Of a stretch of 64,000 bases of DNA, positions 2,653-62,610 are shown one piece after another (the stretch's first letter is position 1; each line of letters begins with the position of its first letter). Source of the DNA: Schmidtea polychroa (Eukaryota); the NCBI GenBank assembly GCA_044892525.1, contig CM097885.1, positions 36,024,001 to 36,088,000 on the forward strand, in the 5' to 3' direction. Position numbers and translations under genes: made by a program. Below the pieces are notes generated by a model. It was not told where the DNA came from. It saw only the letters and a list, made by a program, of their open reading frames with translations, and made no database searches.

Positions 2653-4617
2653 TTATAGTGTCAGATCAGGAGAATGGATTTCATCAGCTGTTGATTCAAC
2701 CAATCGATCGCAGCTGACATTTGATTGGCTCAGTGAATTATTGAAATTGATCATATCGATCCGATCACTGTGTAGATCGATTCCTCTAATTTCCCGCGGA
2801 ATATCCACAACACAATTGATATTTTCCGATTTGATTGCGCAATCGATTATATCACCACCAGAACTGGATTTCTCACCAATCTCCCCATGCCAACCGTTAT
2901 TTGTGATTAAATCCCCCTCATCGGATCGAGTTTCAATTGTTTCTTTCTCTAAGTCCAATCCAATATCGATTTCCGTTATGAGCTGTTGCTTAATCTCAAC
3001 TTTACACAGTTCTTCTTTCTTTTCACATTTTATCCGCTTACTCTGATTAGATTCGTCGCTTTCTCGAGCTGAAATCGGTCTCTTATTGTCGCTGTAGGTC
3101 TGAGTGACGTTTTTCGGTTCCCTTGCACTAAATGTCAACTTCAAATGAAAGACTTGATTCGTATCGGGAATTATGATTGGTTTATGATTGAGCACCGATA
3201 AAGCTACTAACGAGTCTTCCAGCCGATGGAATTCAAACAATCCAATACACTTTTTCACGTGGTCATTCTTATTGTTGAAAATGATAATATTCAAAGGTCT
3301 CGGAACGCCCGATTGCATAATCATGTTACTCAGATCGGATTCGAGGAAAGTGTAAGGAGCATTAAAGAAATGAAGAGTTCGATTAGGTTCGAGGATTTTA
3401 TTGCTGTTGATTCCGTGATCATTCAAAAATCGATTGTTGGCATCGGTAGAGAAGTCTTTAAACGCCGGAGTTCCGTTCGGAAGAAATTCGATGGTTTTAG
3501 ATGGGAAAATTTCCGGTTTGGAACATTTGACAAGCCGCATTTCTTGACCGAATAAAGTCTTACTGTTATAGTACTGAATACAGATGTCCACCGATGATTT
3601 GGAACCCATCTGTACCATTGCAGTGCCCGGTTGGTTGAGGAGAAATCGAACTTTACTAACATTGCCATACAAACAGAAAATATTGAACAAATGATCAACG
3701 CAAATAGTAAAAGACAAATTATAAACCATAAATACAACACCTGATTCAATAACAAACGCGTCTTTATTAATATCTAATTTGGGTTTGATTTTGGAATTTT
3801 TTTGTAAATTAGAGTAATTATAAAGCAAATTTTGACAAGCGAAAGGATGTATTGGCGTTACGGGTATGGGATTATGATATGAAATTGGAGGAGGGTAATT
3901 ATAAATAGGAGGATACATAGATGGATTACCTGGTTGAAACATGTTAATAGCATTATTTGAAACCGATCCATTGACTGGAGGTTTCAAAATACCCTGCTTA
4001 ACTTGTGATTTAGTAAAATCCCAAGATTCATCATCATTCCTTAATACTGGGACACTGGACATCTTTGAATATTTTACATCTAAGGAACAACAGCCAGAAT
4101 ATATATCTTCTCCATGTAAAGCTTCTTTGGCAGCTTTGGCTTCAGAAATTTTATCAAATTCTACTAGACATTCAACAATATTTTCCAAATTCTTTTTACC
4201 AATAAAAATTCGTAATATCTTGCCGAATTTTAGGCAAATCTGTTTAATAATATCCACAGTAATAGGATATTTTACATTTGACACATTAATATTTAATATA
4301 TTTGTTGAATTGTCAAGAGATTTATTATCAACTAAATTAATTGATTGAGATGAACATTCTAATTTAATTTTATGTGATTCAATGTAAAACGGCTTGAATT
4401 TTGCATTTTGGACAAGAGTTGTTGCTGCGCTGCTTTCTGAAAACTCAATTAAACAGCAAGATAGATTTGAAAGCTTTTGAATTTTATTTATAGATCCATA
4501 CTGTTTAAATATCTTATATAGTTCAGATTCTGAAACGGTTAGAGGAATGTCTGTAGCCAATATGGTTTGATTGTTATTTTTAATATTAAATTTTTTATCT
4601 ATGTTTTGATGACTCAT
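2653..4617 (-). CDS. HNRNPL: hnRNP L-like RNA-binding protein (PTB/hnRNP L family, 4 RRMs), single exon, 654 aa
   Basis: Uninterrupted ORF. hnRNP L RRM2 motifs (YPITVDII...ALHGEDIYSGCCSLDVKYSK), Pro/Tyr-rich linker, RRM3 (VFMVYNL...LFNIFCLYGNVSKVRF...GTAMVQM) and RRM4 (TLHFFNAP...GLFEF...LKLTFS). Confidence 0.9.
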   Translation of the reverse strand: MSHQNIDKKFNIKNNNQTILATDIPLTVSESELYKIFKQYGSINKIQKLSNLSCCLIEFSESSAATTLVQNAKFKPFYIESHKIKLECSSQSINLVDNKSLDNSTNILNINVSNVKYPITVDIIKQICLKFGKILRIFIGKKNLENIVECLVEFDKISEAKAAKEALHGEDIYSGCCSLDVKYSKMSSVPVLRNDDESWDFTKSQVKQGILKPPVNGSVSNNAINMFQPGNPSMYPPIYNYPPPISYHNPIPVTPIHPFACQNLLYNYSNLQKNSKIKPKLDINKDAFVIESGVVFMVYNLSFTICVDHLFNIFCLYGNVSKVRFLLNQPGTAMVQMGSKSSVDICIQYYNSKTLFGQEMRLVKCSKPEIFPSKTIEFLPNGTPAFKDFSTDANNRFLNDHGINSNKILEPNRTLHFFNAPYTFLESDLSNMIMQSGVPRPLNIIIFNNKNDHVKKCIGLFEFHRLEDSLVALSVLNHKPIIIPDTNQVFHLKLTFSAREPKNVTQTYSDNKRPISARESDESNQSKRIKCEKKEELCKVEIKQQLITEIDIGLDLEKETIETRSDEGDLITNNGWHGEIGEKSSSGGDIIDCAIKSENINCVVDIPREIRGIDLHSDRIDMINFNNSLSQSNVSCDRLVESTADEIHSPDLTL

Positions 4618-6798
4618 CTAAAATTTAAATTTAAATTTCATGAAAATTAAGTTTTAGAATTATTTATTTTACTTGTAATGGAAGAGCATAAAAGTAGAAT
4701 ATTTAAACAAAATCTAATGTAGGCTTAAAAGTTTATTTAACATTAAAATATTAAAATAATAGCTGTATAAAGAAATTGAATAAAACTTTAAATTAAAGCT
4801 TCTTCAATATAAAGTTTTAATTATATTAATTAAATTTAATTATACAATAGAAAGATGGATTGAAATACTAAAAATAATTTCGACAAATGCATTACTTATT
4901 AATTTAATATTTTATTTATTCTACGATGTAAAAAGTCTATGAGTTTATAAATTGTTTCTTTTTGATAATAAATAAATTAAAGCCAAATCTTCTTTTTGCG
5001 AACTGCAAAATAAAGAAAATGCTTTTGTCAATTTTAGAAACATTCACCGGTAATCTTAGATCAGTTGTAATATATAAGCGGGAGAAAATATTTCTTTAAA
5101 TATAATATAATTTTCTTATTATGGCTAGCATTTTTCAGAAACCTTATTCTTATTTATCAAAAAGCGTTATTTAATTTAAGACAATTTAATTAATCATTAC
5201 TCCTCAATATTCAGGTCTTGAATGCACTGACTTCGATGTCTCGAAATCATTTTCTAAGCTTGCCCCGTCATTTGGAATTTCTTGCACCAGCGTTTGTGCA
5301 TTCGTTCAATTCGTCAAGGCTTCATTTGTGCTTCCCCAATAAGGATGACTGGGGCAAACTTGGTGGTGCTTATTTCACATTCGGTTGTGTTGGAAATAAT
5401 TTGGTGTTTACATACGAGGTAGGTTGAATTATTTGCTACTACACTTATCCCTCGTTTTGTATTGAAATAAGCTAGCTTTCACTTTTCGTACATTCAGTTT
5501 ATATATCCGTTTATAAAAATATGTAAATATTCTGTTTTATTTTTGTTTTGGTGTATACAAATCCAATTTATTTCATCGTTATGATTAGTTGTAAACAATC
5601 TATGTAATGTATAGTTGAATAATAATATTTTATTTCATGGTGTGAGTTAAATAAATTAACATAATAAAAAGGCGATAGATTACAATTCAAAACCATTAGA
5701 ATATGTCATTGACCACTTTAAAAAATAAAACTTTTGAAATCTAAAATAAATATTTGAAAACTATTGGGGTTAGAAGTTATCAATATTTTACCCTTTCGTG
5801 CTGATTTCAGCGTAACCTAAAATACAAGGTTGTTTTACCACTCGATACCCATTGAGTTATCAACGTTAGAAATTTACTGAATTAGTAAATGATGTTTTAT
5901 ATTAATAATTATTTTCTTCAATCGTTTTTGGTCAATTTTCTTCATTGGACATGGTCTTTCTAGCGTAACCCAGAATACAAGGTTTCTTAACCACTCGATA
6001 TCCAGGTGATCTCAATATCCCGGAACCGTCACTTGAGTTTGTTTACTCTAAGTGGCAGATCTTCCATCTGTTTCTATGCCAGCTCTCTATCAGCCCTTAG
6101 GTTTTCAATCAATTGAATCACTAAATGAGAGAAAATAGTTGAATTTAAATTATTTTTATGCCTATATTAAGATAATTCCGGAGTTAAAGGCGCTTTACTA
6201 CTGGTACCCTATCTAACCATAACAGTATGTACCGATCAATGACCTATTTACTTTTATTGGCTATTTTTATCCTTAATACTTTTAATTGCATTTTAACCTA
6301 TTGCAAAATTATTAATTCGTTGTTAATTAAAATTTCCATAATTCGTCACCTTTGTCCTACATTCATTCCTTGCACCATTCAGCGACTCATCATTCCCATT
6401 CAAAGACAAAACATTAACAAAATTTATTTATTAATTAATACATACAGAGAGCAAAAGAAATATGGAAAGATGAGATAGAAATTTGTTTCTTTTTTATCCA
6501 TTTTGTTTTACTAATGCTTAGGATCCTCTCCTTTAATATACCAACACAGTTTTATGTGGGCTTTCAAATGGTACTATTTGTGAAACAATATGATGTTTTA
6601 AGACTATATTTTTATTGCTATTTTGTAACCATATTAAATTTTGAATCAAAAAAGTATGGAAACATTTTACATTTATATGATTTTGTTTAAATGCATCAAT
6701 TATACATGTGTTTCTGAAATTTTCTACGACAGTATAAAAGCCACATTGATCATTTCATTTCTAATCCGAATGAACTTTCTTTACAATTCAGTAGTCTC

Positions 6799-10780: not shown

Positions 10781-47990
<37,210 letters not shown>

Positions 47991-54625: not shown

Positions 54626-56630
54626 TAGGGTTTCTGAAAACGGCACTTTTTGAAAAACGGCCGTTTTTTCTTTTATATTAATAAAGTAAAATATAATTAA
54701 GGTAAATACATAAACAAACTCTTAATTTATTGTTTATTCATTATTTTCATGCTAAGTATTTAAATCATTTGTTGTTTATTAAACCACTTTCTATATTTTC
54801 GACTTGTTATAATAGAATTTGAGAAAAACTAGAGCATTAAGCGAATTATCTGTCAATCTTGAGTGAATTTGGTACAAAAAATTGTGCAAACTGAGAAAAC
54901 TCGTTCTATATCAGTAGCTGTTGGTTTAATACAAAGAAGAGCATCATATGAGTTTTCCAAATCATCGGTTCGCTTGCCAGTATTGCGAAAAAGAGTAAAC
55001 TCCTGTTTCACCCACGAACTTATCACTTGATCCAATTAATCATTTGAGAACCTTTATTCAGCAACATGTGCAACTCATCTTGCAATGAAAGTTCTTGTGC
55101 AGCATCAGTTTGAGCATTGGATTCATCATTTAGGGTTGAATCGGCGTTATTAGTGCCAAATAATCGTGATGATAAATTTCCAGCAAAATCAATTATGAAT
55201 TTAGAAGGAATACTAGAAGGATCCCTAAGACATTTTAACAAATTTGTCACATCACGATTCCATCTTTCGTCTATGTGCTTTTTGAGGTTGGCAAATAGTT
55301 CACTGCTAATGCCAGAATTCAATTCTACGAGCTTGCTATAAGTAAATTCAATAACTGTATCAGCTGTCAACAAAGTCAAATCCTGTCTACTGAGAACTTT
55401 AACTGCGAGTTTGATTGGGCCCATAGCCTAAGAAGTGTTTCCAATCCATTGAAATCCCAATTATTTATGATGTCCAAGTTATTCAATTCCGAGAACGTTT
55501 CAAATAATGCAATTTTCGTCTTTAAAATTGTCTCAATAATTGTAGGAATCGAATTCCAAAGTTGTATAACATCCAAATGAAGTTCAATGCCATGGCCGTG
55601 ATGTAATTTGACTTTCTCTTGAAATATATGATTACGAACTGTTGAATTTTTGATAAATTAAACAAATTCCCGTGCTCTTTTTAGCAATTCATGAAAGTCA
55701 ATGTTCTCATCAAATTGATCGTCAAATATTTCAATATCTAATTCGTCAAAAGAATCCTCTTCGCTTGTATCAAGACTATAAAGATCATTTGTGTCGATTA
55801 AATCATCTCGCTTTTTATGAAGTGTATTACAAACCGCTAAATGAATTGCATGATTAACCACTTGCCGGGTGATTTTTTTTCATGTTTTCAGTCAAAAAAA
55901 ACTATTTTTTTTAAAATCATTAATTTATAGTATATGTTAAGTTAATAAGTTCCTATTATATTTGTGTGTGTTATGAAATTTGATAAGCCCGAAAGAGTCA
56001 CCGTTAAAAATGTGGCGGGACAATCGGGGTGCGTGTTATGTATATTTACAAGTTAAATAAAAATAGAAGTAAAATTAACAATAAACAATAATAACACTTT
56101 TATTAAAAGCAAAATAAAGAACCTTAATATTCACCTTGAACACAATTTAGTCCAACTTCGCGATTTAATAGTTTATTCCTTTCGATTCCCGTTCTTCTTG
56201 TCCATATAGTTTTCATAATTTTCTTGTATACAATTTCAATTCAATTTTAATTTTCAATTTTTGTTTTTGATTTTTTTGATCGCTATATAGTTTTTTTTTA
56301 ATATTTTTTTATTTCAGACAATTAAAAAATGTAAAATGCTATTACAGTATATAATCAAAATATAACGTAAATATATATTTTTAATTTTCCGAGTTTGTAT
56401 TCACTAATTTTTTCTATATGAGTTGGTGCTCACATGTGAGCGCTCGCCCGAAATGGTACACATTTTGGCGCGCTCGGAAAGTGGTTAATACAAAATTGAC
56501 AAACAACATCCATTATTTTCATGTATTTCTTATTTATGGCTGCACCATCTTGCGTTGAAGCTACGATATCTCGATCTGATTCTATACCAAATAATTTTAA
56601 ATGATCCTTCAAGCTATCTGCCATGCTTTC
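54626..56630 (-). mobile_element. Decayed Ac-type hAT transposon (transposase pseudogene)
   Basis: TAGGG terminus at 54626. Motifs TQDGAAIN, C..HAIHL.V, WNS and dimerisation-domain PTATDIERVFS lie across ORFs 54853-56630. Interrupted by two younger insertions. Confidence 0.85.
55858..56484. mobile_element. TTAA-targeting (piggyBac-type) non-autonomous element nested in the hAT transposase
   Basis: TTAA at 55854-55857 and 56485-56488; TIR CCACTTGCCGGG / CTCGGAAAGTGG. Excision restores CQFCINHAIHLAV. Confidence 0.8.
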
Positions 56631-56638
56631 AAGTAGAT

Positions 56639-59194
56639 CATGGGTTCCCAACCGGGGGTCTATGGACCCCATAGGGGTACGTGGAGCACTCCTATTGGGT
56701 ACGAGAAGCGCGGCCGGTAAGGATTTTTGTCTCGAATTTTTATTGATAATATTTCATTGTTTTAAAATTTAGTAACAAACAAAAATCGCAATTTTTTTGA
56801 ACACGGTTCGGTTTTTTCAAAGTAAATTTCCTAAAACTAAATACAATAACAAATATGTACATATGGATTTCTTATTTTTGAAATAATAAATAAGTCGTTA
56901 TATGAAAAAGCATCAGTAGTCTTTGAAATTTTGGTTGTCATAGAAAAGACATATATATAACAGCAAAATAGTAAGAAGATTCATTATAAAAACTACTTGT
57001 AAGGATTTGGTTGAATTTTAAAAGTTCCTGAGTTTTTAATTTTATTCGTTTCTCTGTGCACTATTGAAGTAGTTTAATTATCAAATTTATATTGTTTTTA
57101 CTACTAAAACGTGTACAAAAATAAATATCTATAACGGGTTTCAATTTATTTGGATAGTTACAATAAATAAACCAGTGCATATTTAATTGTCTTAGTTTTT
57201 AGAAATAATTATTTTTTATTATCGACAGCTAACCCATACTGTCACAATGTCAAAGAAGCGTTGTTATCAGGACTCATATATTCAATTCGGTTTCACTTTC
57301 TTAGTTGACAAAGATGGATTGGAAAGGCCACAATGCATACTTTGCTCGAAAGTACTTAGTAATGGTTATATGAAACCATCCAAACTTAAGGAACATCTAC
57401 AAGCAGTCCATCCAAACAACGTTAATGACACAGAATCTTTATTCAAAATTAAGAGAGACCGATTTGAAACAAGCACAAAGCTCACCAATCACGGATTTGT
57501 TCCCGAGAAAAAACCAGCTTTAGAAGCAAGTTATCGTGTGGCATTGAGGATTGCGAAAGATAAAAAACCTCATACAATCGCGGAAACTTTGATTAAACCA
57601 TGTGCGATGGAAATGGCCGAGATTATGTGTGGTAAGGACGCAAAACTTAAAATATCACAAATACCACTATCAAACAACACAATTCACGATCGAATTAAAG
57701 ATATGTCAGAAGATGTCTTAAAGCAGATTGTAGAACAAATAAAAGAAAGTTCAACAAAAATTGGATTGCAATTGGATGAATCCAATGATGTTTCTAATTG
57801 TGCTCAACTTCTTGTTTTTGTTAAATATGTGTTTAGAAACGAAATCAAAGAGGATTTTCTTTTTTGTGAACCTCTGACAGAAACTACAAAGGCTGTGGAT
57901 ATTATGTCAATTATGAATAATTTTTTTGTTGCCAATGGGCTTTCTTGAAACAATGTGGGATCTATTTGTACTGATGGTGCTCCAGCTATGCTCGGGAAAA
58001 AATCTGGATTTACTGCTCTTGTGAAACAGATAAACCCAAATGTTTTTTCTAGTCATTGCATTCTTCATCGTCATGCTTTGGCATCAAAGACTCTTCCTTC
58101 TTATTTCAAAGAGGTATTGGATATTGTCGTGAAAACCGTAAATTTTATCAAATCAAAGGCATTGAATGACCGCCTATTTAAAGTGTTATGCGAAGAAGTT
58201 GGGTGCGAACATACCGTACTTCTTTTACATACAGAAGTACGTTGGCTATCCAGGGGAAAAGTTCTTAGCCGGGTATTTGAACTTAGATATCAAATTGAGA
58301 CATTTTTACGTGACAAAGAATCGACTCATTCGCTTCACTTCACAGATACCAGCTTTGTGCTCTCTTTAGCTTACCTTGCAGATATATTTAGCCATCTAAA
58401 CTCCTTAAATATATCACTCCAAGGTAGAGGTATGAATGTATTAGATGCCGAGGAGAAAGTTACATCGTTTCAAGAAAAGCTGGCACTCTATAGCAAAAGA
58501 GTTGAAAGTGAAAATTACGCCAATTTTTCGCTTTTTGATGAAATAGTTTCCTTGCAAGTTAAACGTGAAATTGATATCATGGTTCTGGACTGTATTAAAA
58601 TACATTTGGAAAATCTTCAAGTTACTTTCGATGGCATTATTTTTCGCACATTTGTTGTTGATAACTGGATAAGAAACCCTTTCACCATTTCATTGGATCA
58701 AATTAGTGATGCTGATGACGCAAAGGATGAACTGCGGAATAACAAAAAAATAAGCAGTGACTTTGAAACAATGGCGTTGGATGTATTCTGGTGTAAGCAA
58801 AGCGAGGCATATCCTGTTTTAGTCAACCGGGCGTTGAAGGCTCTTTTTCCGTTTGTACTACTTACCTTTCCGAATCTGGATTTTCAGTGCTTGTGTCAAT
58901 AAAAACAAAATTAAGGAACAAACTAAATGCTGAACATGACATGCGTTTGGCTCTTTCACACACCCTACCACGAATACAACATTTGGTTGACGGTAAGCAG
59001 CAACAACGTTCCCACTAAATTTAATTTATTTTGTAATTTTTATTTAATTGCTTCTAAATATAAAGTGAATAAATGTTTTTTCTTTATATAATATTGTTTT
59101 TTGCTGTATATAAATAACAATAAAAGTTAAGGGTACGTAAGATTCCAAATTGTTACCAAAGGGTACAATTACCCCAAAAGGTTGGGAACCATTG
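56639..59194 (+). mobile_element. Full-length Buster/SPIN-like hAT transposon
   Basis: TIR CATGGGTTCCCAACC / GGTTGGGAACCATTG; 8-bp TSD AAGTAGAT (56631-56638, 59195-59202). Confidence 0.95.
57247..59018 (+). pseudogene. Buster-family (ZBED5/SCAND3-like) transposase with a premature stop and a 3' frameshift
   Basis: BED finger (PQCILC...LKEHL...H), [23 protein letters not shown] and EVRWLSRG motifs. TGA at 57946-57948, frameshift near 58850-58860, native end QQQRSH* at 59018. Confidence 0.9.
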
Positions 59195-59225
59195 AAGTAG
59201 ATCAAATAAACAGAGTATTCACGTT

Positions 59226-60234
59226 ATGGACCAAGAAAGCATAAACTCAGATATTGGAACAATAATCGCAATTAATTCGTGTAGAAAGGAGCTAGTAAAT
59301 TGCCAAATAAACTCGCACGAGGTGCTTATGGAGGTTGACACGGGTGCAGATGTGTCCATAATATCGTCCAGGATGTGGGAGAATATAAGTAAACCTCATT
59401 TAACCCATTCACAAGTTAGATTTTCAGCATACACGATGGTCATACGATGATGTGCCGAGGTCAGTTTCTTGCTGATGTAGAAACTAAAACTAAGCATCAG
59501 GTCATAATATTAACTGTTATTGAATCAGATAAAACATATGGTCTTTAAGGCAGAGATCTTTAAAAAGCAATCACAATGTCACGATGAAGAGTATATTTCT
59601 TCCCACAATCAAAGAAATTCAAGCCACAATGATACCAATCAAAGAGGCCAGGAATGTATTCTGTAAAGCAAGAGCCGTACTGTTGGCAATGGAAACAAGA
59701 ATCAACGAAGAATTATCACGTCTTGAGGAAATGTGAGTCATCTCACAATGCAAGGATCCAGTAATGAATTGTTCTCCCGTAGTATAGATAAAAAAAGAGA
59801 ATGGAGATTTAAGGATGTGTGTGTATTTCAAAGTTCATATAAACTAGAAAATCAAGACGGAATCATATACTCTACCGAAGATAGAAACTATATTCGCACC
59901 CATAAAAAATGCAAAAAGACCTGAAATCGGCCTATTGGCAAATCGAGCTTGATAAAAAGGCACGACAACTATCAATTATTATACTATGTAAATCGCCTGC
60001 AGATGGGCATAAAAAATGCTTCAGCTATATTTCAAAGAACCACGGAGTAAATTTTATCAGATATAAAAGGTATTCTTATATACCAAGATGACGTCCTGGT
60101 TTTTGGAGAGAATGATGTTTCGATAAAAAACGGTCAGACGCAGTCAAGCAACGCCTAAAAAAAAGAAAATCACTGTAAACAAAGAAAAGTCATTTGAATA
60201 CGTCGCTGAAATTACGTTTTTAGGATTCAATATA
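59226..60234 (+). mobile_element. Ty3/Gypsy pol remnant (protease and reverse transcriptase)
   Basis: VDTGADVSII protease motif; RT motifs GDLRMCV, DLKSAYWQIEL, MGIKNASAIFQR, IYQDDVLVFG and ITFLGF. Many stops and frameshifts; cut off at 60234. Confidence 0.85.
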
Positions 60235-60903
60235 AGTAGGTAGTTAGTAGCCCCCTGCCGCAACACTCCGAGAAGGGGTGGTTTGCGACAACTCATTTTT
60301 TTTTGCTTTTTTGATTACGTAATTGCGGCAGTGAGCTACTCATATTTTTTTCAATATAAATAAAGGGCCTATAGAAAAAAGCCAAGGATTTTTCTGACTA
60401 TTTTAGGGGATCTCCTTGGTCCTGGGATTTTCAATACAAATATCCGACTATCACTAAAAAGCATGAAATTTTCCAAGTAAATTAAGGTGGGTCACCTTGG
60501 TCCTGGGATTTTCAATACAAATATCAGTCCACACTAAAAAATCATGGTAAATTAAGGATAAATAGGTAAATTATGGGTCAAATTTTTAAAAAATGAAAAT
60601 CTTACCATGTTTCGTATATGTAGATTATGACGGAAATAATAAAACCAATACTATTGTTTATTACTTCTTAATAAATGTCATAATAATTAATGGATTAAGG
60701 TTAATGTTATTTATTTAATTATATTACATAATAATTAAAGGATTATGTTTCTTATTTAGATTATTGTTGTCATTGAAGATAGTTTCATGTGTTATTTAAA
60801 TCCTCAAACATAGAGGATTATCATCATTACATAATTCAACTAACAACAAATTATTTACTCTAATACATCAATACTCTTTATTTAATACAAAAACAATACA
60901 TTT

Positions 60904-61292
60904 TTATTCAAATTTTATTTCATTGACTTTAACCAAGCCAAACAATATTGTCCCCATGTTTTGTCATGGTATTTTGGTAACGAATTCGATTGTATTCAAT
61001 TGGTATAAGCATTGATTGTAGTTTATTGATTAATAAAGGCGTATAATAGAACCTCATTGGATCAAATGCATGTCTTTTGTCGGGCTTCGCGTAATATAGC
61101 AAGCCAATGTTCACCATTCAGATTAGCGGATTGTTTATTTACAATTATTGCTTTGTTGACATGTAAATACGGTATTTTGTCTAATAGGAAACACCAAGAA
61201 ATTCTGATCTTAATATTTTTCTTCCGATAATTTGTATCTGAATAGAACTGAATTAATAAAAATTAATTAATTTAAATTATTTCTTACTTCAT
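60904..61292 (-). pseudogene. Polinton adenain-like cysteine protease (frameshifted; putative 40-nt intron 61248-61287)
   Basis: Reconstructed MNSIQIQIIGRKILRSEFLGV..LDKIP...IIVNKQSANLNGEHWLAI...AFDPM...EYNRIRYQN...GQYCLAWL, the adenovirus/Polinton protease pattern (GEHW, FD, Q, CGxYC). Confidence 0.8.
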
Positions 61293-61332
61293 ATTTTGAT
61301 TAATTGTATTTCTATATTTGGTTTATATTTGA

Positions 61333-62322
61333 TCAAACCAAAACAGTATGAGTAGATGTAATTTGAATTTCTTTTTCAAAAGTTTCATATACAAATACAG
61401 AAACAACTTCAGTAAGTGAAGATGCAAATTTAATATCTAATTATAAATTTCCACTTTGAGGTAACTGACTTTGATGAAGATCAAAATCAGGTGCCAATAC
61501 AAATGTAAAGAATGGATACTTATTCTTAAATTCAGACATGTTGATACCACAATTCATATTTTTATTTAGATATCCCATATTTCTAACAATTGATTGCATA
61601 GAACTTGTACTATAATCATCTTTCTCAAAATCTTGACTATATTTTTCACGATAATCACTTCCTTTACTTAAAGTTATCGACTTGACATTAGAGTGATCAA
61701 ATACTGAAAATGTTTCTGAAAATGATCCACTAAATCTTTTACTAGATTGAAATGCAATAAGAATAAAATTAGGTAAACGTCTATCTCCAAATATTTGTTC
61801 TTTATAAAAAGAGGAAGAACCAATAGGTAATGAGAAATCAACAACTTCTTTGCTTCTTAAAGGACAAATTGCATTTTTTGTAGACAGACCAATTTGATGA
61901 CCTGCTTAAACTGATGCACGAAGTCTTCTAACCATTAATTTTGCATCTAATAATACAATTAATTATAAGTGTTTCTATTAATGCTTTGTGTGCAAATCTA
62001 TCATTTGATCCCTCGACTTTGATTGAATTAAAAATTAATTCAAAGTCTTTAAAAAGGGTTTGGAAGAAGAAATTATTTGGAATTACTTCTGATTCACCTA
62101 AATTCTCACCTAAATTATTAACAACTGTCAATTTAATATATTACAAAGTATCATTCAAATCGAATATTCAGTTTGCGATCCATTAATGTAAAATTGAATC
62201 GAACAAGAACCAGGATCTGTAATTGAATTCCTTGGGTACATATCTTTAAATGCTCCATGTTCAATTACTGATTGGGGAGAAGGTATATCGAAAAGACATA
62301 ATTCTGATTTAGCGCTAATCAT
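61333..62322 (-). pseudogene. Polinton double-jelly-roll major capsid protein (stops, frameshifts, internal deletion)
   Basis: MISAKSELCLFDIPSPQSVIEHG...IQFYINGS..Y.DLNDT...PNNFFFQTLF...ALIETL, then C-terminal LPNFILIAF...FVLAPD...GNL.LDIKF...VYETFEKEIQI, matching the Polinton MCP consensus as I recall it. Confidence 0.85.
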
Positions 62323-62610
62323 TTTTCAAAGATGGTACCATATCCTTTCATTCTTTTGTTTATAAGTTTCTTCATAATTTTTCGTCGTTTAAATGTTCCA
62401 TCTTTTTGTTCTATTTCATTTTTAAATACATCGGATGCTTTATTAATTATTTCAGGTAAATGTTGCATCACGGCAGGCAATGAATCTTTCATTTCAGAAA
62501 TTGCATTTATTTTAAAGCAGGCAAGATTTTTGAATTATTTCTTATTACGTCATTAGCTGTTTTCATACCAAAATTTCCAATTCGTCTAAGAATCAGGAGT
62601 GCAAATCTAT
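62319..62610 (-). pseudogene. Small basic/amphipathic Polinton protein upstream of MCP (core/pVI-like, unnamed)
   Basis: RFALLILRRIGNFGMKTANDVI...QKDGTFKRRK...GYGTIFEK* with one frameshift; its TGA overlaps the MCP ATG (ATGA). Confidence 0.55.

What the first reader, a model, noticed from the sequence alone, without database searches (positions are those of the whole stretch)
61248..61292. Putative 40-nt spliceosomal intron in a Polinton/Maverick viral protease gene
Seen (minus strand): ATG AA|GTAAGaaataatttaaattaattaatttttattaattCAG|T TCT ATT CAG ATA. Unspliced, the ATG reads M-K-stop. Removing 61287-61248 gives MNSIQIQIIGRKILRSEFLGV, the typical 'MN..QI...F.GVF' start of Polinton adenain proteases. 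The intron size resembles host micro-introns (47 nt at 40373-40419). Inference: this viral lineage splices its maturation protease transcript, possibly as an expression control. Polinton genes are usually annotated as intronless, and ORF finders would miss this start.
Basis: partly seen in the sequence, partly recalled or inferred. Interest (0 to 1): 0.7.

Follow-up and report, generated by a model that had tools for sequence, protein, structure and literature searches.

The report
Conserved intron in Polinton protease gene
A virus-like jumping element (Polinton/Maverick) has a tiny host-type intron inside the second codon of its capsid-maturation protease gene, kept at the same spot in distant relatives, although the core genes of such elements are described as intron-free.

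Summary
Confirmed: a 40-nt GT-AG segment at 61287-61248 (minus) interrupts codon 2 of an adenain-type protease gene in a broken Polinton remnant. It is not chance or a private insertion. Of 24 related loci with the protease, 13 carry a 37-47-nt GT-AG segment at the same phase-2 position; capsid identity among carriers is 45-64%. Donors match the U1 consensus, interiors are no more alike than shuffles, and removal puts the conserved Gly at residue 20, as in two intron-free relatives of the same clade. An ATAAAC box 31-37 nt before the ATG suggests the gene's own promoter and a very short first exon. Other genes of the clade carry similar introns; capsid, ATPase and integrase frames are unbroken. 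No spliced RNA junction was seen (poor RNA data). 'Expression control' is unsupported: the early stop follows from the donor consensus. The flatworm host is unverified. Papers read call Maverick core genes intronless. Verdict: real, lineage-conserved spliceosomal intron; new variant of a known kind.

The parts
61248..61287 (-). 40-nt U2-type intron, phase 2, in codon 2 of the protease gene
   Evidence: same position in 13 related loci
61288..61292 (-). Coding part of exon 1: start codon plus two bases
   Evidence: same layout in all intron-bearing relatives
60915..61247 (-). Exon 2 of the adenain-type (Peptidase_C5) protease gene; broken in this copy by several frame breaks and a substituted catalytic position
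   Evidence: tblastn to P0039/P0040 in two frames; relatives L006 and P0039 pass the PF00770 cut-off; end read from the three-frame translation
61321..61327 (-). TATAAAC box, ATAAAC starting 34 nt before the protease ATG; probable promoter element (inferred)
   Evidence: lies between the capsid stop and the ATG, so outside coding sequence in this copy
61333..62322 (-). Major capsid protein gene (double jelly-roll), broken; no intron
   Evidence: 89-94% identical pieces to 407-aa P0002 in two frames; PF21738 weak hit; Atlas feature score 0.98 to clusters in which 24-30% of members carry PF21738
62358..62363 (-). ATAAAC box 41 nt before the capsid ATG
   Evidence: read; found before 12 of 12 capsid starts in relatives
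62510..62608 (-). Remnant of the small core-protein-like gene that precedes the capsid gene
   Evidence: tblastn to the L004 homologue, E 3e-6
60235..60600 (.). Element end: AG-starting terminus and subterminal direct repeats; very high copy; no partner arm in the window
   Evidence: depth; internal repeat 60348-60460/60428-60540, no inverted partner; inner boundary approximate

Best explanation
The segment is an ordinary U2-type spliceosomal micro-intron that is an inherited part of the protease gene in one clade of Polintons. Shown: position, phase and splice signals are conserved while the interior has turned over, and exon 1 supplies only the start codon, so most members cannot make the protease without splicing. 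Inferred: the gene is transcribed in the host nucleus by RNA polymerase II from its own ATAAAC box about 30-37 nt before the ATG (possibly read by the element's TBP-like protein), giving a first exon of about 5-15 nt; the host spliceosome removes the intron and the 111-122-residue adenain is translated. The intron was probably gained once, near the base of an intron-prone lineage, and is kept because the start codon depends on it and exact loss is rare; one lineage lacks it exactly. The window's copy is a dead remnant that still shows the layout.
For: 13 of 24 loci with a protease carry the segment at ATG+5; capsid identity among carriers 45-64%, median 55, 55 pairs. In 11 non-redundant carriers including the window: GT 11/11, +3 purine 11/11, +4 A 11/11, +5 G 10/11, +6 T 9/11, AG 11/11; interior identity 0.60 vs 0.59 shuffled, exon 2 0.53 vs 0.28. 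Lengths 37-47 nt in all three classes modulo 3, yet the conserved Gly falls at residue 20 in 12 of 13 loci (18 in L023), as in intron-free L005 and L031. In 6 of 10 non-redundant relatives there is no in-frame ATG upstream and the first one in exon 2 is at residue 57-108; in the window, L004 and L014 an in-frame stop stands one codon before the acceptor codon. 9 of 10 relatives keep His, Asp and Cys motifs in an open frame; the tenth ends with its contig. ATAAAC 31-37 nt before the ATG in 12 of 14 carriers and before capsid (12/12), ATPase (5/5) and one more gene (4/4). Similar 40-53-nt introns in other genes of the clade, no candidate in 31 kb of outgroup loci.
Against: No spliced junction seen in three RNA-guessed runs: only X7 covers the site (depth 15-20) and no joint there is among the 15 listed, with 47 not shown. 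No conserved branch-point motif at a fixed distance: 3 of 11 have no YTRAY at all. L001 and L014 have an ATG early in exon 2, L011 and L023 one upstream in frame, so these four could make a variant without splicing. In most relatives the ATAAAC box lies in the last capsid codons and may be held by coding; outgroup L018 has a box but no intron. Loss in L005 is favoured (0% of bootstrap trees group the carriers) but not proven (AU p 0.227). Other GT-AG pairs give open frames in single loci; the ATG+5 solution was chosen because it is the one all 13 share.
Confidence: 0.88

Rival explanations
1. The intron is real and is kept as a control device: splicing efficiency gates or times the amount of maturation protease relative to capsid, and unspliced RNA yields only a one- or two-codon frame.
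For: Unspliced reading stops after one or two codons in 13 of 13 loci and the window. Among the virion and packaging genes examined only the protease is split; capsid, minor capsid, ATPase and integrase are single open frames. Retained over deep divergence.
Against: The early stop is forced by phase 2 plus a GTRA donor, so it is no separate evidence. Donors are strong consensus sites, not weak regulated ones. L005/L031 lack the intron and keep an intact protease. Like introns sit in polymerase-leader, TBP-like, phosphatase and accessory genes.
Confidence: 0.25
2. The acceptor is used by a donor further upstream (an adenovirus/adomavirus-type late leader, a trans-spliced leader, or a donor at the capsid end giving a capsid-protease fusion), and the ATG-proximal donor is secondary.
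For: Adomavirus late genes use acceptors just before their ATG with a three-exon leader (10.1101/341131, passages); possible Hexon-Adenain fusions are mentioned for adintoviruses (10.1101/2024.03.25.586562, section 16). In L006, L007 and L014 a GT at the capsid end could join in frame to this acceptor.
Against: The acceptor lies inside the coding frame, after the start; the consensus donor is fixed at ATG+5 in all carriers; the fusion donor appears in 3 of the 16 in-clade loci scanned and is non-consensus. A leader ending in AUG, as recalled for flatworm spliced leaders, would be out of frame at a phase-2 acceptor.
Confidence: 0.06
3. Not spliced at all: the segment is a non-coding spacer after a mini-frame, and the protease starts at a later or non-AUG codon, by reinitiation after the capsid stop or by a ribosomal jump.
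For: The ATG lies -1 to +7 nt from the capsid stop in 12 of 13 loci, a spacing that suits stop-start coupling; no RNA junction was seen.
Against: It does not explain +5 G in 10 of 11 donors against 6% G in interiors (binomial about 1e-11, relatedness not modelled), an AG at the frame-restoring place in all, or the exact match to intron-free L005/L031. Residues 3-20 are conserved yet have no start codon in most carriers.
Confidence: 0.04
4. A chance or post-integration insertion (for example an introner or local duplication) in one decayed copy.
For: The window's copy is decayed; introners enter dinoflagellate Polinton-like proviruses mostly after integration (PMC12166617, passages).
Against: Same position in 13 loci whose capsid proteins are 45-64% identical and whose proteases are intact; interiors unrelated, unlike an introner family.
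Confidence: 0.02

Closest known systems
Polintons/Mavericks of animals (adintoviruses, eupolintoviruses), PRO/adenain gene
   Same: Gene set and order in relatives: ATPase, integrase, minor capsid, core, major capsid, adenain, opposed large polymerase-sized frame.
   Different: Vertebrate and nematode Maverick core genes are reported as intronless (PMC8097293 passages; 10.1101/2022.07.12.499685 passages, where only cargo genes have introns). Here a core virion gene has a conserved intron, and the clade carries a TBP-like gene (PF00352).
Introner-bearing Polinton-like proviruses of dinoflagellates (PMC11957031 / PMC12166617)
   Same: Spliceosomal-type introns inside Polinton-like elements.
   Different: Those are young repeated transposons mostly gained after integration (passages); this is one old position with unrelated interiors, shared across an animal-associated clade.
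Spliced late transcripts of adenoviruses and adomaviruses (10.1101/341131)
   Same: Related viruses with an adenain whose late genes depend on the host spliceosome.
   Different: There a shared leader is spliced to acceptors in front of intact frames (passages); here the intron splits the protease's own second codon and each gene seems to have its own promoter box.
Start-codon-proximal introns of cellular genes (actin, tubulin, ribosomal protein genes; recalled, no call)
   Same: First exon that codes little more than the initiator Met.
   Different: Here in a virus-like element, with a predicted first exon of only about 5-15 nt.

Membership tests
U2-type spliceosomal intron | 5' GT with U1-complementary +3 to +6 bases | tested here: met
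   GT 11/11, R 11/11, A 11/11, G 10/11, T 9/11
U2-type spliceosomal intron | 3' AG preceded by a pyrimidine, T-rich end | tested here: met
   AG 11/11; -3 is T or C in 10/11; -4 T in 10/11; interiors 55% T
U2-type spliceosomal intron | Removal gives the homologous reading frame, matching intron-free homologues | tested here: met
   Gly at residue 20 in 12 of 13 loci, as in L005 and L031; window counted by eye
U2-type spliceosomal intron | Branch-point motif near the 3' end | tested here: inconclusive
   YTRAY in 8 of 11 at varying distance, in A+T-rich sequence where it arises easily
U2-type spliceosomal intron | Excised from RNA in vivo | tested here: inconclusive
   No matching joint listed in three RNA-guessed contig runs; one of three covers the site thinly; 47 joints not shown
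U12-type intron | RTATCCT donor (motif recalled) | tested here: not met
   Donors are GTAAGT-like
Introner (intron-generating transposon) | Family of similar intron sequences at many unrelated sites | tested here: not met
   One position, interiors at shuffle-level identity; a genome-wide search was not possible
Polinton/Maverick | Double jelly-roll major capsid protein | tested here: met
   PF21738 weak hit; Atlas 0.98; 37 homologues
Polinton/Maverick | Adenain-type protease after the capsid gene | tested here: met
   PF00770 above cut-off for L006 and P0039; window matches P0039
Polinton/Maverick | rve integrase and A32-type packaging ATPase | tested here: met
   In relative L004 (PF00665, PF04665); absent from the window remnant
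Polinton/Maverick | Protein-primed B polymerase | tested here: inconclusive
   L004 has a 1148-aa frame in the expected place, but its only Pfam hit is endonuclease VII, a domain also listed for Maverick POLB in PMC5803895; not in the window
Polinton/Maverick | [quoted passage not shown] | tested here: inconclusive
   One high-copy AG-starting end at 60235; no partner arm in the window

The most novel reading that the evidence does not exclude
This clade runs a host-nuclear late programme of its own: an element-encoded mini-TBP starts capsid-module transcripts a few bases before each ATG, and the codon-2 intron makes the host spliceosome a rate-limiting switch for the maturation protease alone among the virion genes. 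The long-kept splice signals and intact catalytic motifs would then be evidence of continued selection on virion maturation in animal Polintons, whose particles have not been observed (PMC8097293 abstract).
Probability: 0.22. Interest if true: 0.72.

Novelty: new variant of a known kind. Interest (0 to 1): 0.5.

Why it matters
Maverick core genes are treated as intronless, and surveys call elements intact by unbroken frames, so spliced lineages get truncated or mis-started proteases or are scored as decayed. A splice site held under selection in a virion-maturation gene shows that the late genes of this clade are made by polymerase II in the host nucleus and are really used, which bears on whether animal Polintons still build particles and do so without a cytoplasmic helper virus. 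The junction is also a marker that separates true Polinton late transcripts from DNA carry-over in a genome full of copies, and the presence/absence pattern offers a small test case of intron gain and exact loss in a DNA-replicating element.

Tried and rejected
No whole genome is held, so copies in the host could not be surveyed. The look-up of sequencing runs: no RNA holder listed. Contigs of X9 and X10 do not cover the intron; X7 covers it thinly and may hold DNA: no evidence either way. The DNA run X2 shows one contig joint 61242-61289 (46 skipped, between not known, depth 48 against 3259-5662 in those bins); it is not the 40-nt junction and may be a copy with a diverged interior; unresolved. 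Word-indexed protein searches with the decayed protease found nothing; Pfam did not recognise it. IMG/VR scans found no relative; the prokaryote-genome scan gave one half-capsid contig, L034. Single-sequence fold of the L005 protease was too poor to use (pLDDT 41); PDB sequence matches were not significant (E 0.36-0.87). The first tree was an unfinished quick tree with a mistranslated row (L033); it was replaced, which left out near-duplicates, short rows, L033 and rows of unknown state (19 rows kept). Host taxon not found (exact look-ups blank). A capsid-protease fusion splice was considered and rejected as not conserved. Stop-start reinitiation was my first idea for how the gene is expressed; I lowered it after the ATAAAC box proved to precede most genes.

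Full report
Observation. The minus strand has an ATG at 61292, two more bases, then a 40-nt A+T-rich segment (61287-61248) that begins GTAAGA and ends TTCAG. Read without splicing, the ATG gives two codons and a stop. The frame after the AG matches residues 3-21 of a protease relative (63%). The gene lies directly after a broken major capsid gene (62322-61333; pieces 89-94% identical to the 407-aa protein P0002) and about 650 nt from a high-copy element end at 60235. The window's copy is dead: the exon-2 frame closes at residue 23, later parts lie in other frames, and a catalytic position is substituted.

What the gene is. A full HMMER search with the decayed protease gave 29 relatives; P0039 and the relative in locus L006 pass the Pfam cut-off for adenovirus endoprotease, and locus L004 holds rve integrase, A32-type ATPase and a TBP-like gene. 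Most distant relatives start with a contiguous Met followed by a polar residue and Ser/Thr, whereas the closest gene calls (P0039, P0040, P0041, P0043; also P0042) start with a low-complexity hydrophobic leader and then an extra Ser, which is what reading through an intron and its AG gives. P0061 starts normally; whether it is a spliced model or an intron-free gene is unknown.

The comparative test. A capsid-profile scan of metagenome contigs gave 33 loci; 24 hold the protease. Of these, 13 carry a GT-AG segment five bases after the ATG (L001, L004, L006-L011, L013, L014, L016, L017, L023), 2 in-clade loci lack it exactly (L005, L031), and 9 more distant loci have contiguous starts. L002 shows the donor at its contig end. 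Lengths are 37-47 nt and cover all three classes modulo 3, yet removal puts the conserved Gly at residue 20 in 12 of 13 (18 in L023), as in L005 and L031. Other GT-AG pairs give open frames in single loci; only this one is shared by all. In 11 non-redundant carriers, the window included, the donor reads GT 11/11, purine 11/11, A 11/11, G 10/11, T 9/11 and the acceptor AG 11/11, while interiors are 0.60 identical against 0.59 for shuffles and exon 2 is 0.53 against 0.28. Background rates for GT and GTRA at that offset are 5.4% and 1.0% of 4894 ATGs. Capsid identity among carriers is 45-64%. Nine of 10 non-redundant relatives keep the His, Asp and Cys motifs in an open frame of 111-122 residues, and in 6 of 10 no ATG could start a protein before residue 57 without splicing; four have an alternative ATG. 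No fixed branch point was found.

History. In a 19-row capsid tree the 12 carriers and L005 form a clade (100/100) against six intron-free outgroup rows; two changes are needed, and no bootstrap tree groups the carriers alone, but the AU test does not reject that grouping (p 0.227). One gain with a later exact loss is favoured, not proven. The lineage is intron-prone: a 40-nt intron splits the TBP-like gene of L002 where L004 has none, 43- and 46-nt introns split an L004 gene and an L014 phosphatase gene (read by eye), L005 and L031 have 40-43-nt candidates in an accessory gene, and three 45-53-nt candidates precede the polymerase-sized frame of L004. The scan gave 22 candidates in 76 kb of clade loci, some clearly false or alternative, and none in 31 kb of outgroup loci. 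Capsid, minor capsid, ATPase and integrase are single frames in the long loci (that output was partly cut).

How it most likely works. An ATAAAC box starts 31-37 nt before the protease ATG in 12 of 14 carriers and 30 nt before it in L005/L031, and in 0 of 8 outgroup loci, though L018 has one. It also precedes capsid (12/12), ATPase (5/5), the gene before integrase (4/4), minor capsid (3/5) and core (3/10) starts, against 63 of 1708 ATGs overall. In most loci it overlaps the last capsid codons; in the window it lies in the 40-nt spacer. I took this lead from earlier notes of this scan and tested it here. If it acts as a TATA box (inference), the transcript starts a few bases before the ATG, exon 1 is about 5-15 nt, and the host spliceosome must act before the protease can be made. 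If capsid transcripts also run through, the donor lies 4-47 nt after the capsid stop, inside the roughly 50-nt zone that is recalled not to trigger nonsense-mediated decay. The two-codon unspliced frame follows from a phase-2 GTRA donor and is no sign of regulation; a control role stays possible at about one in four.

RNA. No RNA holder was listed. Of three RNA-guessed contig runs only X7 covers the site, thinly, and no joint there is among the 15 listed (47 not shown). One DNA contig skips 46 nt with unknown letters between, which is not the predicted junction. Splicing is therefore inferred from conservation, not observed. The DNA run laid 4238 contigs on 2.8 kb, so the family has many related copies.

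What is known. Passages read: PMC8097293 reports no introns in intact vertebrate Mavericks, citing Kapitonov and Jurka 2006; 10.1101/2022.07.12.499685 calls the nematode core genes intronless, with introns only in cargo; PMC11957031/PMC12166617 report introners in dinoflagellate Polinton-like proviruses; PMC12220804 reports group I introns in protist elements; 10.1101/341131 reports leader splicing in an adomavirus; 10.1101/2024.03.25.586562 section 16 mentions possible Hexon-Adenain fusions. Term look-ups in PMC8502044, PMC11296320, PMC10748475, PMC6431247, PMC10175614, PMC5803895 and 10.1101/2024.01.15.575659 showed no spliceosomal intron in a Maverick core gene. Eight searches listed no paper on a spliced Polinton protease; I saw most hits as listings only, read no supplements, and could not see Repbase records or the 2006-2007 papers, where such a gene model might be annotated. 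This scan's own unchecked notes describe intron-bearing Polintons on other DNA (capsid, integrase, many genes) and polymerase-leader introns in this genome; look-ups for a protease intron returned nothing.

Verdict. A real, clade-conserved U2-type intron in a Polinton core gene (confidence 0.88), seen here in a dead copy. It works like any short host intron; its interest lies in where it sits. New variant of a known kind; interest 0.5.

Noticed in passing
L002:377-416 (+), TBP-like gene; compare L004:927-1370: A 40-nt GT-AG intron splits the element's TBP-like gene in L002, while the L004 homologue is one frame (coordinates read by eye; PF00352 hit for L004).
   Followed up: partly
L004:11315-11661 (-): Three candidate introns of 45-53 nt cut a mini-exon leader in front of the polymerase-sized frame; L017's polymerase starts without such a leader.
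   Followed up: partly
L005:2543-3007 (-); L031:2260-2663 (-): The two loci that lack the protease intron carry two and three 40-43-nt intron candidates in an accessory gene.
   Followed up: partly
L014:436-1033 (+): Dual-specificity phosphatase cargo gene (PF00782) with a 46-nt intron at 646-691 flanked by CAG|GT on both sides.
   Followed up: partly
L023:3029-3071 (+): 43-nt intron candidate in the gene after the protease; the L006 homologue appears as one frame.
   Followed up: no
L020-L022, L026-L028, L030, L033, capsid end: In the outgroup the protease ATG overlaps the last capsid codons and no ATAAAC box is present, suggesting translational coupling rather than a separate promoter.
   Followed up: partly
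L034: A Polinton capsid gene half sits in a contig of a cyanobacterial metagenome-assembled genome, probably mis-binned.
   Followed up: no
window 2653-4617 (-): 654-aa single-frame RRM protein gene resembling hnRNP L/PTB (family name inferred), apparently without introns.
   Followed up: no
window 57196-58902 (+), 55023-56753 (-), 59196-60200 (+): Decayed hAT-type transposase frames and a Gypsy-like protease remnant flank the Polinton end; the Polinton end adjoins the retroelement remnant.
   Followed up: no
window 60348-60540: Subterminal direct repeat (116 nt, 77% identical, 80-nt offset) with far higher read depth than the coding part, as expected if many gene-less derivatives share the end.
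   Followed up: no
P0042, P0061: Two database proteins are chimeras of this protease with unrelated parts (histone H2A-like by eye; RING finger by Pfam), probably faulty gene models.
   Followed up: no
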